Virus record (IMG/VR): IMGVR_UViG_3300027668_000016
Location: 1,718 to 65,717 of that record
DNA length: 64,000 nt
From: a virus
Lineage: Duplodnaviria; Caudoviricetes
Direction: 5' to 3' (one strand)
In this document: piece by piece, positions 5,315 to 55,379 of the stretch
Layout: each line of letters starts with the position of its first letter
Numbering within the stretch: position 1 is the stretch's first letter
Position numbers and translations under genes: made by a program
The notes under the pieces: generated by a model
The model's input: the letters and a program-made list of their open reading frames with translations, nothing else
The model's database searches: none
Told to the model about the DNA's origin: nothing

Positions 5315-5941
5315 TTACTTTTTACCAAGTTTCCACATCATTCTTGCAGAAATCACCGGCTCTAAGGTTTGATTAAACCCTAAACCGATTCCAAATACTT
5401 TCTTACGTTTACTTCTAAATAAAAGTTCACCACCAATATAATTGAATTGAGTTCTGTTACCAGCTAACCCAATACCTACATAAAACTCATGTTTACTAAT
5501 TAATGAATCTCTTGTAATGGTGGTGGTTGGTAATAATAAATTTGGGGTGATTTGTCGAAACACAATTGAGTTTTTACTAATTGTATCGTTTATTATGATG
5601 TTACCTAATGAATCTAAATTTAATGTATCCGTATAGAAATACTTTGTATAGTAATCTTTTAAAATATCTAATGTATCAATGTTCGCTGGGATGGTATCAT
5701 GTATAGTTTCAATTTTGGTTTTCCATTTTGGTATATAAACTAAACTATCAATCTTTACAGTATCCCACTTTGTTTCAATTTTAGTAATAACCGTACCTTC
5801 AACAGGCTGTTCGATTCTTTTATTGAATGGGTTTAAGTTAAATGGTTGAAACGGACTTGAACATTGTTGTTGCAGTATAATTATAATAATTAAAACTGCT
5901 ATTATTATACTTTTTAGACTATTGAAAATCTCTTTAATCAT
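5315..5941 (-). CDS. Membrane-anchored periplasmic protein, possibly spanin-like
   Basis: N-terminal hydrophobic helix followed by QQQC, a T/D-rich stalk and C-terminal amphipathic beta-strands. Confidence 0.5.
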   Translation of the reverse strand: MIKEIFNSLKSIIIAVLIIIIILQQQCSSPFQPFNLNPFNKRIEQPVEGTVITKIETKWDTVKIDSLVYIPKWKTKIETIHDTIPANIDTLDILKDYYTKYFYTDTLNLDSLGNIIINDTISKNSIVFRQITPNLLLPTTTITRDSLISKHEFYVGIGLAGNRTQFNYIGGELLFRSKRKKVFGIGLGFNQTLEPVISARMMWKLGKK

Positions 5942-33429: not shown

Positions 33430-34523
33430 TACCTAACCACTTTAAATACATAACCATCAAAATACTCTTGTCTACTATCTCTATCAACTCTAAATTCAAA
33501 CTGATAGAATCGTTCAGGTTGAAGTGTATTAAACCAAAAATCAAAATAGTTACCATTCGAATCACAACTAATTTTAGTATAAGTTGTATCGAATGGTGCT
33601 AACACTAAATTGGTCTCAACATCTCTAACCTGATAATAAGTATTTTGAGGAAGAGATTTAACATCATTATATAGAGAAGAAGTTGAAAAAGTTCTTTGTG
33701 GAAATCTTTGCCTACCCACTACTCTTATTCTTGATTTTGAATTTTCCTTATATTCTGCCATTAAATTCTTTGGGTATATTAAAATATCATCACCTGTTAA
33801 TGATGATAACGACCCAGTAACATATGCTGAATCATCCCATCTGACTTCTAATGTTGGAACATATATTGTATGTGTTTCGTTTGAGAAGAATTTAGATGAG
33901 CCATATCTGGTAGAACCACTCTCTTCTAATAATGGTCGTTTTACAATAAACCCATTGTTGTATCTTGAACCACTCATCCAATCTTTAACATACTCAGTAA
34001 CTTCTACTTTTAAGTCATTTGTGTATTTGTTAAAGGTTTGTGAGTATGCTGTGTTATTTGCCGATGCAGTATACCAAGTACCACCACCATCATTATGTAT
34101 GTATGAACCAGTCGTTCCACTTGCAAATGAACCTGTTGTCCATAATGAACTATTTCTATATTGCCAGCTTACACCATCCGTTTGAATTGGTGAATCATAA
34201 AATTGACCTTTACCTTCTGTCCAACTTTGTGAAACGGGATATATATCTAACTGATATTCAGATTGTACTCCAACTTGTTCAGTAGATGTGAGGTTTAAAT
34301 AAAATTTACAATTAGATGAAATCTCACCTGCTGATATTGATGCTGATAATGATGTGATATTAAATTGTGTTAACACCCTACTGTTACCTATTAGAATACT
34401 ATCAGTATCAGTATCGTAAAATTTAGTTACTTCTAATATTTCATCACCACCAGCATTCTGTGCTCTTAATGCGTCTTGTTCGTATATTGTAGAATCCTTT
34501 TGTCCGTATATTCTATATATCAT
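33429..34523 (-). CDS. Virion structural protein (DNRLRE-like beta-sandwich)
   Basis: KDSTIYE..NAGGDEILE, SRVL.QF, PVSQSWTE, GVSW, VTEYVKDW...NNGFIVK..FFSNE..PTLEV.W. Confidence 0.7.
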   Translation of the reverse strand: MIYRIYGQKDSTIYEQDALRAQNAGGDEILEVTKFYDTDTDSILIGNSRVLTQFNITSLSASISAGEISSNCKFYLNLTSTEQVGVQSEYQLDIYPVSQSWTEGKGQFYDSPIQTDGVSWQYRNSSLWTTGSFASGTTGSYIHNDGGGTWYTASANNTAYSQTFNKYTNDLKVEVTEYVKDWMSGSRYNNGFIVKRPLLEESGSTRYGSSKFFSNETHTIYVPTLEVRWDDSAYVTGSLSSLTGDDILIYPKNLMAEYKENSKSRIRVVGRQRFPQRTFSTSSLYNDVKSLPQNTYYQVRDVETNLVLAPFDTTYTKISCDSNGNYFDFWFNTLQPERFYQFEFRVDRDSRQEYFDGYVFKVVR

Positions 34524-53339: not shown

Positions 53340-53521
53340 CTTTGTTTTGGTTTAGTATATCAGCATTCAACCACCAATGCGTTATTACTGCTATCTTCAT
53401 AAAATTCTTTTAGTCTATTTACTAACCATTGGTGGTTAGGGTGTTTCTTTGTAGCTAGTAATCTAAATGATATTTCATCAACTAACTTTTTAACATCCTC
53501 ATCTTTCATAGTACTCTTTAA

Positions 53522-53851
53522 TTATTTGGGGTTATTCTGTGGGTCATAAAATATATATTTGCACGTAATCTCATCACCTGCAATAATATCTTCTATTGTA
53601 TTTAATTCTAAATAGGGTTGTACATACTCATCTGATATAATCACATTTTCACAATTAGGAGTATCGCTGTGATTATAAAAACCACCTAATGGTAATCGTA
53701 ACCAATCATCCGTTGTAACGTTATACTTTACTCTAATGTGTGATACACCTATATGTGTACCTTTTGGGATATCTACTTTAGTGAATAACCCCACACCTTC
53801 AATCTTACTTTCTTTTATTGTTAAGTAATCTGGTAGTGGTTTGTAACTCAC
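53522..53851 (-). CDS. SET-domain lysine methyltransferase
   Basis: S.IEGVGLF...IPKG, NHSDTPNC, DIIAGDEIT..Y. Confidence 0.85.
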   Translation of the reverse strand: MSYKPLPDYLTIKESKIEGVGLFTKVDIPKGTHIGVSHIRVKYNVTTDDWLRLPLGGFYNHSDTPNCENVIISDEYVQPYLELNTIEDIIAGDEITCKYIFYDPQNNPK

Positions 53852-54015
53852 TTAGTTTTATTTAGTAGTTGTTTAAAAGCACTTTCAATTGATTCTAATT
53901 GGGTTAACTTAGGGTTATCCTGTCTTAGTACTTTACTTGCGTTAATTATTACTTCTCTGATACCATATGAATGAGCTTCCATAAGCACCTCTTCTATTTG
54001 TTCTTCTACTGTCAT
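53848..54015 (-). CDS. 55-aa hypothetical protein
   Basis: Hand translation MTVEEQIEEVLMEAHSYGIRE...; stop overlaps the SET gene start (GTGA). Confidence 0.55.
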   Translation of the reverse strand: MTVEEQIEEVLMEAHSYGIREVIINASKVLRQDNPKLTQLESIESAFKQLLNKTK

Positions 54016-54035
54016 AATCATTTACTAATTAAAAT

Positions 54036-54104
54036 TGGTGGGGGTGAGAAGGCTAGCTGTGTCTGGCAATGCCAATTTCTGCTTCAATCTCATCCGTACC
54101 CACC
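54036..54104 (-). ncRNA. Putative small hairpin RNA A
   Basis: GGTGGG..TGAGA pairs with TCTCA..CCCACC; 3' end CACCA; starts just after tRNA-Gly-like copy 1. Confidence 0.55.
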
Positions 54105-54108
54105 TTTG

Positions 54109-54180
54109 AGCGGGAGGTTGGAACTGCCCCAACTTCTTTGTACTGGAAGTACAACGAGTTTCTCTTAACTCTTCTCTCGC
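54109..54180 (-). tRNA. Atypical tRNA-Gly(UCC), copy 1
   Basis: GCGAGAG-AA-GAGT TAAGAGAA ACTC-G-TTGTA CTTCCAG TACAA-AGAA-GTTGG GGCAGTT CCAAC-CTCCCGC-T; full cloverleaf with non-canonical D and T loops. Confidence 0.85.
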
Positions 54181-54185
54181 ATTTG

Positions 54186-54257
54186 AGCGGAGGGTTGGAA
54201 TCGCACCAACACCTTCTATCTGGATGATAAATGTCTTACTACTAAGACTTCCCCCGC
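54186..54257 (-). tRNA. Atypical tRNA-Gly(UCC), copy 2
   Basis: GCGGGGG-AA-GTCT TAGTAGTA AGAC-A-TTTAT CATCCAG ATAGA-AGGT-GTTGG TGCGATT CCAAC-CCTCCGC-T; A33 and GUGC in place of GTTC. Confidence 0.82.
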
Positions 54258-54262
54258 AATAT

Positions 54263-54322
54263 AGAGAATGATAACCGGTAGCTTAAACTGAGCGGCCTTA
54301 TCTCAATCTTTAATCATTCTCC
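54263..54322 (-). ncRNA. Putative small hairpin RNA B
   Basis: 10-bp closing stem GGAGAATGAT/ATCATTCTCT; shares AGATTGA..CAG..AGCTA with RNA A; starts just after tRNA-Gly-like copy 3. Confidence 0.55.
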
Positions 54323-54326
54323 TTTG

Positions 54327-54398
54327 AGCGAAAGGTTGGAACTGCCCCAACTTCTCTATACTGGAAGTATAGCGGGTTTCTCTTAACCCCTCTCTCGC
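54327..54398 (-). tRNA. Atypical tRNA-Gly(UCC), copy 3
   Basis: GCGAGAG-AG-GGGT TAAGAGAA ACCC-G-CTATA CTTCCAG TATAG-AGAA-GTTGG GGCAGTT CCAAC-CTTTCGC-T. Confidence 0.85.
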
Positions 54399-54407
54399 AT
54401 TTATTAT

Positions 54408-54440
54408 GTAAATATACAAATAAAAATTGATATAACCTAA
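54408..54440 (-). promoter_or_regulatory. Bacteroidota-type promoter driving the tRNA-Gly-like operon
   Basis: TTAGG-N-TTTGTATATTTAC ending about 10 nt upstream of copy 3. Confidence 0.65.
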
Positions 54441-54719
54441 TTATATACCATAATATTTTATTGTACGTTTTTTAATAGCCGATATTATCGAATCATCTTT
54501 TTGTGCATTAATTGAGGTATCCCATAACTTCTTCATAAACATCATATGGTGTGGTTGGATATCAAATCCCATCTCACCATCAAATGTATTTAATGAGCCT
54601 GTAATAAGTGCGTTTACAATCTGAATATCTCCCGTATCTACTGTAGATTCTTTCGAATTTTCCATCAATTTCTTTAGATATACTATTTTATCGGTTATTT
54701 CTATACTTTCCCACATCAT
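54441..54719 (-). CDS. Hypothetical protein
   Basis: 92-aa ORF with TATATTTG a few nt upstream (nearly leaderless). Confidence 0.55.
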   Translation of the reverse strand: MMWESIEITDKIVYLKKLMENSKESTVDTGDIQIVNALITGSLNTFDGEMGFDIQPHHMMFMKKLWDTSINAQKDDSIISAIKKRTIKYYGI

Positions 54720-54784
54720 TTGAATACAAATATACGAAATTTAATTCATATATCCTAATTTATTTACTATTATTTTTACTATTG

Positions 54785-54856
54785 TAGCCCGTAAGAGAAT
54801 CGAACTCTTATTTTACGGATGAAAACCGTATATCCTAACCGTTAGATGAACGGGCC
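54785..54856 (-). tRNA. tRNA-Glu(UUC)
   Basis: GGCCCGT..ATCTAACGGTTAGGAT..TACGG TTTTCAT CCGTA..AAGAG TTCGATT CTCTT ACGGGCT A; canonical; CCA not encoded. Confidence 0.92.
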
Positions 54857-55061
54857 ATTGATTATTTTTTATTAAATCTATCTAAACATAGATGAATGTA
54901 CGTTATACTATCAGAAGAACCTATTAATACATCAGCTTTCCAATATTTTTTACAAATTTCATCTACATTGAGCTTTTTTAATGATACTAACTTAGGTACA
55001 TACACTTTATTCAATCCCATAACTACAAATATACACAATTAATTTGGGAATTACAAGCATT

Positions 55062-55379
55062 TTACTTCTTTTTTCTACCTATAATGATTGGAATTGTTAT
55101 TGATACTGAACCTAACGCTGTTGCGAGTATATCTTTTCCATCAAATTTACCACCACGACCCTTATCGTAGGCCTCCTTAGCGATTCCAGCTACAATACCT
55201 GTGCCGATTGAGATTAATACTCTATTTGATTCTTTAAGTTCGAACCGATTCAACCCTATATAGGTAGTTGATGTTATAAAACCACCTGCCACAAAGTGAG
55301 TTACCTTGTCTGATGGGATTGTTTGTGTCATACCCACCATTCCGATGAGTAATGCTACTGTTGTTAATACTTCTTTCAT
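55062..55379 (-). CDS. Exported membrane protein, YfiM/DUF2279-like
   Basis: Signal peptide, DKVTHF.AG, GIAKEAYD..F..KDILATALG. Confidence 0.7.
   Translation of the reverse strand: MKEVLTTVALLIGMVGMTQTIPSDKVTHFVAGGFITSTTYIGLNRFELKESNRVLISIGTGIVAGIAKEAYDKGRGGKFDGKDILATALGSVSITIPIIIGRKKK

What the first reader, a model, noticed from the sequence alone, without database searches (positions are those of the whole stretch)
54036..54322. Two related small hairpin RNAs, each attached behind a tRNA-Gly-like copy
Seen: in transcription order the operon reads tRNA3 - RNA B (54322-54263) - tRNA2 - tRNA1 - RNA A (54104-54036). The two closely related tRNA copies are each followed by CAAA and then a GG-starting 60-69 nt element whose ends pair. 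The closing stems differ in sequence (GGAGAATGAT/ATCATTCTCT vs GGTGGG..TGAGA/TCTCA..CCCACC), but the interiors share AGATTGA, CAG and AGCTA in the same order. RNA A ends in CACCA. Inference: [tRNA + partner RNA] is a duplicated functional unit, and the partner is an unrecognised ncRNA released by tRNA processing, in the way bacterial Y RNAs are often tRNA-linked.
Basis: partly seen in the sequence, partly recalled or inferred. Interest (0 to 1): 0.75.

Follow-up and report, generated by a model that had tools for sequence, protein, structure and literature searches.

The report
Phage tRNA-array spacer RNAs: one conserved, one local
Of the two small hairpin RNAs between glycine-tRNA look-alikes in this marine phage, one belongs to a widespread, uncatalogued family of folded phage RNAs whose function is unknown, and the other is an unrelated hairpin that closes the operon in a few close relatives.

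Summary
The sequence features are real, but the claim that the two RNAs are related is not supported.

**RNA B (54262-54322, minus strand)** belongs to a conserved folded-RNA family.
- 47 distinct copies were collected from viral contigs, and both stems covary.
- About 25 core bases are nearly invariant.
- It has no Rfam 15 match and no match in GenBank phages.
- Only 1 of 18 pattern hits in the cellular-genome collection is real.
- 11 of the 46 copies from other contigs touch tRNAs or tRNA look-alikes. Most (26-28) lie between gp32-like SSB and RecA genes.

**RNA A (54036-54104)** does not fit the B model (1.2 bits). Its likeness to B is at chance level (389 of 2000 shuffles do as well). It occurs only in near-identical relatives, always as the last element before the next gene.

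**The "tRNA-Gly-like copies"** belong to a 72-nt cloverleaf family that keeps the glycine identity marks. ARAGORN does not call them and Rfam does not match X1 or X3. This scan found the family earlier on other DNA and linked it to Mom enzymes.

B and the look-alikes occur without each other, so there is no obligate tRNA-plus-partner unit. Nothing supports a Y-RNA reading. The function of B is unknown. My best guess is a folded punctuation or end-protecting module.

The parts
54409..54416 (-). TATATTTA box, a likely promoter -7 element of the RNA operon
Evidence: Read from the sequence. Contigs from RNA libraries end at 54402 and 54406. This is a weak hint only.
54327..54398 (-). X3: 72-nt glycine-identity tRNA look-alike (loop CUUCCAG, T-loop GGCAGUU)
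   Evidence: Member of the 35-sequence cloverleaf alignment: 99.9% of 770 cells paired, covariation beaten by 0 of 500 shuffles. ARAGORN does not call it and Rfam does not match it.
54262..54322 (-). RNA B: P1 closing stem, UUAAAG junction, P2 hairpin with loop AUAAGGCCG, then UACCGGUUAU
   Evidence: Model R1 scores it 70 bits, E 1.4e-13. The family's P1 and P2 stems covary.
54186..54257 (-). tRNA2: more canonical member of the same look-alike family (loop CAUCCAG, A at position 33)
   Evidence: Rfam tRNA model 39 bits in E-value mode. It aligns without gaps with the X family. X1 versus tRNA2: 1 of 500 shuffles as good.
54109..54180 (-). X1: second copy of the glycine-identity tRNA look-alike
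54036..54104 (-). RNA A: 69-nt branched hairpin that closes the operon, followed by AAUUUUAAUU and the next ORF (ATG at 54021)
   Evidence: Fold of -25.9 kcal/mol, z -3.2. Homologues occur in 9 of the 12 metagenome contigs that hold the 20-mer, always last before the ORF. One compensatory change and two wobble changes, not significant.

Best explanation
**Shown**
- The locus is one short RNA operon of an uncultured marine phage. It holds three glycine-identity tRNA look-alikes (X3, tRNA2, X1) and two unrelated spacer RNAs.
- RNA B is a member of a conserved, virus-restricted structured RNA family. Its parts are:
  - a 10-bp closing stem P1;
  - junction UU(G/A)AAG;
  - hairpin P2 with loop AUAA--CCG;
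  - an optional inserted hairpin;
  - then ACCGG-N-(U/C)-A.
- This family is a free-standing module. It is found inside tRNA arrays and, more often, in the spacer between gp32-like SSB and RecA genes.
- RNA A is a lineage-specific hairpin that always closes the operon.

**Inferred**
- In this operon B is cut out as a 61-70-nt RNA. RNase P would act at the next tRNA-like gene and 3'-end processing at the previous one.
- The family acts at the RNA level as a compact 'punctuation' module in polycistronic phage transcripts. It would be a folded block that defines or protects RNA ends, possibly through a factor that binds its invariant core.
- A serves as the 3'-terminal (terminator or stabiliser) hairpin.
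- The look-alikes are probably charged with glycine and used outside translation. An earlier reading in this scan links them to Mom enzymes, which use Gly-tRNAGly.

The confidence given is for the whole statement. The shown part alone I would rate at about 0.85, and the inferred mechanism of B at about 0.3.
For: **B family**
- Model R1 finds 62 matches in 100 pattern-fetched viral loci. 47 sequences are distinct.
- In the 10-sequence seed, 89% of 200 cells pair against 70.6 +/- 2.0% in shuffles. 13 of 20 pairs have changes on both sides. 0 of 500 shuffles reach the covariation score.
- G-U pairs outnumber A-C mismatches 68 to 26, so the fold is on the transcribed strand.
- No match in Rfam 15. 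No match in 50,697 GenBank phage records for the window's cluster; for a free-standing copy's region one coding-sequence match outside B.
- Only 1 of 18 pattern hits in the cellular-genome collection is real, and it is a 524-bp MAG contig.

**Context of the 46 distinct copies outside the window**
- 11 lie within 5 nt of a tRNA or look-alike.
- 26 lie between gp32-like and RecA-like ORFs, plus 2 with one neighbour cut off.
- 3 lie after a 5'-3' exonuclease gene.
- 4 lie elsewhere.

**B in the window lineage**
- It is retained in all 9 related metagenome contigs, even where X3 is deleted.
- Variant bases seen in RNA-library contigs keep the pairs: A9-U becomes G-U, and U-G becomes U-A.

**RNA A**
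- It is last in all three cluster variants.
- In other phages the last look-alike is followed directly by a short hairpin plus a U run.
- One RNA-library contig spans 54046-54402, which is about the promoter box to the end of A. This is a weak hint.

**Look-alikes**
- G1-C, C2-G, G3-C, discriminator U, C35, C36, G10 and G45 are invariant in 35 of 35 sequences.
- These are the glycine identity marks listed in PMC9976931 (passages read) and PMC7826273 (passages read).
- Mom uses Gly-tRNAGly (PMC13219725, passages read).
- 3 of 5 look-alike-bearing records carry three Mom genes each, and both records that are at least 90% complete do so.
Against: - No experiment, and no read-level RNA ends. The RNA-library data are assembled contigs that bridge B, and they could even come from DNA in the library.
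- The proposed CCG:CGG tertiary pair never varies, so it is untested.
- Most B copies lack a U run after P1, so B is not a general terminator.
- In RecA-relative loci the same spacer holds other inserts. Of 74 loci, 46 have a different insert of 70 nt or more, 3 have a short hairpin and 5 have nothing. This fits a generic or dispensable role as well as a specific one.
- RNA A's structure is compatible with the 6 known sequences but not significant (98 of 500 shuffles). The terminator scan finds nothing here because A's loop is too large for it, and the tail has only four consecutive U.
- The window's own record has no Mom gene. It is only 37% complete.
Confidence: 0.5

Rival explanations
1. 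[tRNA look-alike + partner RNA] is a duplicated functional unit, and A and B are related Y-RNA-like partners released by tRNA processing.
For: - Both RNAs follow a look-alike after CAAA, start with GG and have pairing ends.
- A keeps two features seen in many B copies: GAUUGAAG right after its inner stem, and GCUA before that stem's 3' strand.
Against: - A-B similarity is at chance level (389 of 2000 shuffles).
- The B model gives A 1.2 bits.
- A follows tRNA2 or a hybrid gene in relatives.
- B and the look-alikes occur apart.
- No Rfam Y RNA match. No TROVE, RtcB or RNA-ligase gene in the record.
Confidence: 0.05
2. B is a new class of small self-cleaving ribozyme. It would cut polycistronic phage transcripts, and in tRNA arrays it would help free neighbouring tRNA ends, as theta ribozymes do.
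For: - Small size (about 60 nt), a compact junction with about 25 near-invariant bases, and a variable inserted hairpin.
- Restricted to viruses, with varied intergenic contexts that include tRNA flanks.
- HDV-like theta ribozymes are known to sit next to phage tRNAs (PMC10879173, abstract and outline read).
Against: - No match to any ribozyme family in Rfam.
- The 5' and 3' ends pair with each other, unlike the HDV-like topology as I recall it.
- None of the alternative inserts in the same gp32-RecA spacer matches a known ribozyme either.
- Three RNA-library contigs bridge B uncut. Contigs cannot show cleavage, so this is weak.
Confidence: 0.15
3. B is a cis-acting operator bound by a phage protein, for example the gp32-like SSB or a translational repressor, and it sets expression of the downstream gene (RecA).
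For: - In 26-28 of 46 copies B ends 17-35 nt before the RecA start and just upstream of its ribosome-binding site, directly after the gp32-like gene.
- T4 gp32 is known to regulate translation through an RNA pseudoknot (as stated in PMC10690425, passages read).
Against: - 11 of 46 copies are flanked only by tRNA-type genes with no ORF to regulate.
- Close relatives do without B in the same spacer.
- The window copy has no coding gene downstream within the operon.
Confidence: 0.12
4. RNA A is a decayed paralogue of B. It would have lost the P2 hairpin and the ACCGG segment and now serve only as the operon's end hairpin. This concerns A's origin and does not exclude the main reading.
For: - The layout is shared: a closing stem, then (G)AUUGAAG, and GCUA before the 3' strand.
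- The hairpin loop with CCG and the ACCGG segment, which could pair with each other, are both missing in A.
- Recombination and decay are active in this array, as shown by hybrid and mutated look-alikes.
Against: - There is no statistical support.
- The shared words were noticed after the fact.
- No intermediate forms were found. 0 viral contigs hold the A 20-mer, and all 9 metagenome homologues are nearly identical.
Confidence: 0.2
5. The elements act at the DNA level, as a replication origin, a priming signal or a recombination cassette boundary, rather than as RNA.
For: - B is single-copy where present.
- It often lies in the replication/recombination module.
- The gp32-RecA spacer is a swap site for different inserts.
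- An earlier scan note reads a similar element as a cassette-junction marker (e1-5976947; sameness not verified).
Against: - G-U pairs outnumber A-C mismatches 68 to 26 on the transcribed strand.
- B always has the orientation of the flanking genes or tRNAs.
- The window shows no GC-skew turn near 54 kb.
- B sits at tRNA-like spacing inside arrays.
Confidence: 0.07

Closest known systems
Phage T4 stable RNAs C and D (species 1 and 2) of the T4 tRNA gene cluster. Recalled knowledge; my paper search did not return a source that I read.
   Same: Small structured RNAs of unknown function. They are co-transcribed with phage tRNAs and freed by the tRNA-processing machinery.
   Different: B is shorter (about 60 nt against more than 100 nt as recalled). 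Most B copies lie outside tRNA arrays (35 of 46).
HDV-like theta ribozymes next to phage tRNAs (PMC10879173; abstract and outline read)
   Same: A small folded RNA placed directly beside phage tRNA genes and thought to help tRNA end formation.
   Different: No Rfam ribozyme match for B. B's two ends pair with each other. Self-cleavage is untested.
Bacterial and phage Y RNAs (YrlA) with Ro60/Rsr. Features recalled, not read here.
   Same: Small non-coding RNAs, sometimes linked to tRNA-like modules and phages.
   Different: No Rfam match. No TROVE gene in the record. B's closing helix is not conserved in sequence. B occurs in mRNA spacers.
Candidate structured RNAs of IMG/VR viruses (8,495 unnamed models; PMC10690425, passages read)
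   Same: Same data source and the same kind of object: covarying intergenic RNA motifs of uncultured phages, including tRNA-like ones and ones beside gp32 genes.
   Different: The paper highlights motifs upstream of gp32. B lies downstream of the gp32-like gene.
Non-proteogenic tRNAGly of Staphylococcus (PMC7826273, passages read) and Mom, which uses Gly-tRNAGly (PMC13219725, passages read). These are for the tRNA look-alikes, not for A or B.
   Same: The glycine identity marks are kept while the D and T loops are rebuilt. Mom genes are present in 3 of 5 look-alike-bearing records.
   Different: Charging and use by Mom are untested. The window's own record has no Mom gene (37% complete). The T-loop GGCAGUU and D-loop UAARAGAA are specific to this family.

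Membership tests
B-type phage RNA motif (defined here by model R1) | RNA B has the full set: covarying P1, UU(G/A)AAG, P2 with an AUAA--CCG loop, and the ACCGG segment | tested here: met
   70 bits, E 1.4e-13, full model length
B-type phage RNA motif (defined here by model R1) | RNA A has the same set of features | tested here: not met
   Not among 18 hits at E<=10 in the whole window. 1.2 bits in a 101-base search. It lacks the P2 loop and the ACCGG segment.
tRNA (Rfam RF00005 / ARAGORN) | Score above the family threshold | tested here: not met
   X1 and X3 get no match at E<=10 and no ARAGORN call. tRNA2 alone reaches 39 bits against a gathering score of 29. None of the 42 ARAGORN calls in 25 related cluster regions is a look-alike.
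Bacterial tRNAGly identity set | G1-C72, C2-G71, U73, C35, C36 and the G10-Y25:G45 triple (PMC9976931, PMC7826273) | tested here: met
   Invariant in 35 of 35 aligned sequences. The exception is Y25, which is C in 34 and U in 1. Charging itself is not testable here.
Y RNA / Ro60 system | Match to an Rfam Y RNA or YrlA model | tested here: not met
   No match in gathering mode over the window or at E<=10 over 53800-55100.
Y RNA / Ro60 system | A Ro60 (TROVE) gene in the same genome | tested here: inconclusive
   PF05731 is absent from the 65.7-kb record, which is only 37% complete.
HDV-like / theta and other known self-cleaving ribozymes | Match to a ribozyme covariance model | tested here: not met
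   No ribozyme family at E<=10 for the window's B or for a free-standing copy.
Intrinsic terminator (for RNA A) | G+C-rich stem followed directly by a U run | tested here: inconclusive
   The outer stem GGUGGG/CCCACC is followed by A-AUUUUAAUU. The scan finds 0 terminators in 53500-55200, but it allows only loops of 3-8 nt.

The most novel reading that the evidence does not exclude
B is a new functional RNA class of marine phages. It would be a about 60-nt pseudoknotted three-way-junction module that is either self-cleaving or exonuclease-resistant, and it would punctuate polycistronic transcripts: tRNA arrays in one phage group, the SSB-RecA operon in another. It would be a protein-independent counterpart of tRNA punctuation.
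Probability: 0.15. Interest if true: 0.8.

Novelty: new variant of a known kind. Interest (0 to 1): 0.55.

Why it matters
Phage tRNA arrays are usually annotated as tRNAs plus 'spacers'. In this array nearly all of the roughly 360 nt is structured RNA that standard tools miss.

- It holds three glycine-identity tRNA look-alikes, one member of a widespread virus-only RNA family, and a terminal hairpin.
- B has an invariant core and covarying stems. It appears in two very different transcript contexts, across phages with different translation signals.
- That makes B a good candidate for a bench test of self-cleavage, nuclease resistance or factor binding.
- The gp32-RecA spacer, where B alternates with several other unknown folded inserts, looks like a natural swap site for such RNA modules.

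For annotation, a model of B and a model of the look-alikes would label hundreds of uncultured-phage loci.

Tried and rejected
**Searches for A, B and the look-alikes in existing collections**
- Rfam found nothing for A, B, X1 or X3. This covers gathering mode over the whole window, E<=10 over 53800-55100, over a free-standing B, and E<=1 over 15 RecA-relative loci holding other inserts.
- blastn of the cluster against GenBank phages gave no match. For the region of a free-standing B it gave one weak coding-sequence match only.
- A neighbour-ORF search with the 92-aa ORF found no relatives.
- A search with the 57-aa ORF found 2 relatives. One of them, L148 (80% identical), has an ORF where the RNA cluster would be.

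**Leads that turned out to be chance or uninformative**
- A loose B pattern returned mostly chance hits, so I replaced it with a stricter one.
- The weak R1 hit at window 33894-33978 (17.3 bits) lies inside a 364-aa ORF. I dropped it as chance.
- Origin-of-replication idea: the GC skew falls steadily across the window with no turn.
- Terminator scans gave 0 sites near the locus. In 44-64 kb they gave 9 against 7.3 +/- 2.6 expected. This is uninformative.
- Mutual information found no covarying tertiary pair in B beyond P1 and P2.

**RNA libraries**
- Only assembled contigs were available. They cannot show RNA ends, strand or level.
- Parts without cover (53948-54021, and above 54762) prove nothing.

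**Rows dropped**
- L008, a chance 18-mer hit.
- L076, a chance regex hit.
- L255, L258 and L263, chance 20-mer hits.
- L323, which has no upstream DNA.
- L113's apparent 'X' neighbour, which I judged a regex artefact.

**Limits on what I could see**
- Paper searches for a published B-like motif found only the IMG/VR catalogue paper, whose tables I could not see.
- The T4 RNA C/D comparison rests on recall (one search gave no source that I read).
Full report
**1. What is at the locus**

The window is part of a 65.7-kb IMG/VR virus record that is 37% complete. It comes from marine samples. On the minus strand the sequence reads as follows.

| Element | Coordinates | Followed by |
|---|---|---|
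| TATATTTA box | 54416-54409 | |
| X3 | 54398-54327 | CAAA |
| RNA B | 54322-54262 | UAUU |
| tRNA2 | 54257-54186 | CAAAU |
| X1 | 54180-54109 | CAAA |
| RNA A | 54104-54036 | AAUUUUAAUU... |

A 57-aa ORF then starts at 54021. No minus-strand ORF of 40 aa or more lies between 54021 and 54441.

ARAGORN finds only the separate tRNA-Glu at 54784-54856. Rfam in gathering mode finds the same single tRNA. In E-value mode Rfam's tRNA model also matches tRNA2 at 39 bits. Nothing matches X1, X3, A or B at E<=10.

**2.

All the stated strings and coordinates are there.
- X1 and X3 are homologous (0 of 500 shuffles as good). X1 and tRNA2 are more distantly related (1 of 500).
- A and B each fold better than shuffles: z -3.2 with 2 of 200 as good, and z -2.2 with 4 of 200.
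- The A-B likeness does not hold up. The best local alignment is the 7-mer AGATTGA, which 389 of 2000 shuffles equal. For the interiors alone, 1382 of 2000 shuffles do as well.

**3. The tRNA-like genes**

- The exact 18-base T-arm of X1/X3 occurs in 30 IMG/VR contigs. 29 of them show the whole element.
- I collected 34 distinct 72-nt sequences, none with an indel, and aligned them with tRNA2.
- A standard cloverleaf fits 99.9% of 770 cells. 12 of 22 pairs show changes on both sides. The covariation score is 0.52 against 0.195 in shuffles, with 0 of 500 as high.
- Invariant positions are G1, C2, G3 with their partners, the discriminator U, C35, C36, A37, G10 and G45. Most of the D-loop (UAARAGAA) and T-loop (GGCAGUU in most copies) is also invariant. 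Positions 32 and 38 pair: C-G in 34 sequences and U-A in 1.
- These are the glycine identity marks listed in PMC9976931 and PMC7826273 (passages read). The elbow-forming loops are rebuilt.
- None of the 42 ARAGORN calls in 25 related cluster regions coincides with a look-alike.

Earlier notes of this scan, on other genomes, read the same family as private glycine carriers for Mom enzymes.
- I checked the published basis. Mom of phage Mu uses Gly-tRNAGly (PMC13219725, passages read).
- Pfam PF25680 (Mom) is found three times each in 3 of 5 look-alike-bearing records. Both records that are at least 90% complete have it.
- It is not found in the window's own incomplete record.
- So the link is plausible but untested for this genome.

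**4. RNA B**

Six of the first loci had a B-like RNA right after a look-alike and before another one. Pattern scans added more copies.

*Fold.* A 10-sequence alignment supports two stems.
- P1, the 10-bp closing stem, has changes on both sides in 8 of 10 pairs.
- P2 has them in 5 of 7 pairs.
- Overall, 89% of 200 cells pair against 70.6 +/- 2.0% in shuffles, and 0 of 500 shuffles reach the observed covariation.

*Family size.* The covariance model R1 gives these results.
- It scores the window's B at 70 bits.
- It finds 13 matches in 29 look-alike loci.
- It finds 62 matches in 100 pattern-fetched loci.
- 47 sequences are distinct.

*Consensus.* P1, then UU(G/A)AAG(A), then P2 with loop (G/A)AUAAAACCG, then an optional hairpin insert of up to about 60 nt, then (U/A)ACCGG-N-(U/C)-A, then P1'.
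- Loop positions 5-6 vary (AA, GG, AG, CA, CG).
- A three-pair contact CCG:CGG between the loop and the 3' junction is possible but invariant, so it cannot be tested by covariation.
- G-U pairs outnumber A-C mismatches 68 to 26, so the fold belongs to the transcribed strand.

**5. Where B occurs**

The 46 distinct copies outside the window fall into these contexts.

| Context | Copies |
|---|---|
| Within 5 nt of a tRNA or look-alike on at least one side | 11 |
| Between a gp32-like ORF and a RecA-like ORF (both neighbours confirmed by blastp) | 26 |
| As above, with one neighbour cut off | 2 |
| After a 5'-3' exonuclease gene (DnaB-like helicase next in two) | 3 |
| Elsewhere | 4 |

- In the gp32-RecA setting the gp32-like ORF ends 6-19 nt upstream and the RecA-like ORF starts 17-35 nt downstream.
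- Families were verified for one locus of each type: PF08804 gp32, PF00154 RecA, PF02739 exonuclease and PF03796 DnaB.
- The gp32-RecA copies are followed by a Shine-Dalgarno-type GGAG. The window-type loci are followed by a TAnnTTT(G/A) promoter box instead. B therefore spans phage groups with different expression signals.

B is single-copy where present, and it is separable from the look-alikes.
- 2 of 5 look-alike-bearing records have one B.
- A 95%-complete record with look-alikes and Mom genes has none.

B is close to virus-only. Of 18 pattern hits in the collection of 185,579 species genomes, only a 524-bp MAG contig passes R1.

**6. The gp32-RecA spacer is a swap site**

I fetched 75 loci encoding close RecA relatives (80-100% identity) and could examine 74 of them.

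| Spacer content | Loci |
|---|---|
| B | 19 |
| A different insert of 70 nt or more, of several recurring types with long closing stems | 46 |
| A 62-68-nt spacer with a plain hairpin | 3 |
| Only 20-22 nt | 5 |
| Unclassified | 1 |

None of the other inserts matches Rfam in the 15 loci tested at E<=1. This agrees with an earlier scan note on a pseudoknot RNA at cassette junctions between gp32 and UvsX. I could not verify that it describes the same motif.

The spacer's occupant is therefore dispensable or interchangeable. That fits a generic role such as end definition, protection or insulation. It also fits selfish spread.

**7. RNA A**

- The B model gives A nothing: no hit in the whole window at E<=10, and 1.2 bits in a 101-base search.
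- A 20-mer of A is absent from IMG/VR. It is present in 12 metagenome contigs, 9 of which carry the whole element.
- These contigs give 5 further distinct sequences, all nearly identical to the window's.
- The changes that fall in stems keep pairing in all but one cell. There is one compensatory change (U13-A60 to A-U) and two wobble changes. With so little variation this is not significant (98 of 500 shuffles).

The same contigs show that the array is fluid.
- 4 contigs have the window's order.
- 4 lack X3 and carry a tRNA2/X1 hybrid in which identity bases C2 and C36 are mutated.
- 1 has X3-B-tRNA2-A with no X1.
- In every case B is kept and A is the last element before the ORF.

In other phages the last look-alike is followed, after the same CAAA or CUAA, by a short hairpin with a U run. 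A thus occupies the terminator position, although its tail has only four consecutive U.

A does share GAUUGAAG and GCUA with many B copies, at equivalent places. It could therefore be a decayed B paralogue. I rate this at about 0.2, because no test supports it.

**8. RNA evidence**

Contigs from marine RNA libraries cover the cluster: runs X15 and X16 from one study and X17 from a second.
- One 363-nt contig aligns to 54046-54402, which is about the promoter box to near the end of A.
- Three contigs bridge B.
- Their variant bases in B keep its pairs.
- These are assemblies, and they may include DNA carried in the library. They show presence, not RNA ends.

**9. Reading**

*Shown.* B is a bona fide conserved RNA fold of a large virus-restricted family that Rfam 15 does not hold. 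A is a separate, lineage-specific hairpin at the operon's end. The 'tRNA-Gly-like copies' are members of a glycine-identity look-alike family.

*Inferred.* B is released from the array by tRNA processing. The family works as a folded punctuation or end-protecting module, possibly with a bound factor.

**10. Novelty and limits**

- B and the look-alikes have no Rfam family and no match in GenBank phages.
- 8,495 unnamed candidate RNAs from IMG/VR were published (PMC10690425, passages read).
- The look-alike family was found before by this scan on other DNA.
- I therefore class the finding as a new variant of a known kind: small structured RNAs embedded in phage tRNA arrays and operon spacers. 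It keeps a modest chance of being a new functional class.

Noticed in passing
L271, L279, L289, L290, L297-L300, L304, L307, L310, L331, L337 (about 70-150 nt upstream of the RecA start, near locus position 1050-1200): The gp32-RecA spacer of closely related marine phages holds at least five other recurring folded inserts with long closing stems, in place of B. None matches Rfam at E<=1.
   Followed up: partly
L254, L259, L260, L264 and L256 (relatives of window 54036-54400): Recombination between the repeated tRNA look-alikes has produced array variants. In one, X3 is deleted and a tRNA2/X1 hybrid carries mutated identity bases (C2 to U, C36 to U). In another, X1 is deleted.
   Followed up: partly
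L020:5565-5644 (+): A second, divergent B-like element (35.5 bits) lies just upstream of the first look-alike. This relative therefore reads B'-X-B-X'.
   Followed up: no
L296, about 90 nt upstream of the RecA start: A B variant with GCCGG in place of ACCGG was missed by model R1 at E<=0.01. The family is wider than the model.
   Followed up: no
L148:1170-1500: In the closest relative by the 57-aa ORF (80% identity), a roughly 110-aa ORF occupies the place of the whole RNA cluster. The cluster is therefore an accessory cassette.
   Followed up: no
L352 (524-bp contig binned in an Akkermansiaceae MAG): This is the only B copy found in the cellular-genome collection. It is probably a phage fragment binned by mistake.
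   Followed up: no
L020, about 5445-5519 (+): ARAGORN reports a 'tRNA-???' with a two-base anticodon (tc), 45 nt upstream of the B-like element. It may be another odd tRNA-like gene.
   Followed up: no
G001, G002 and G004 (records behind L003, L018, L115): Each of these large look-alike-bearing phage records carries three Mom-family (PF25680) genes, two of them adjacent.
   Followed up: partly
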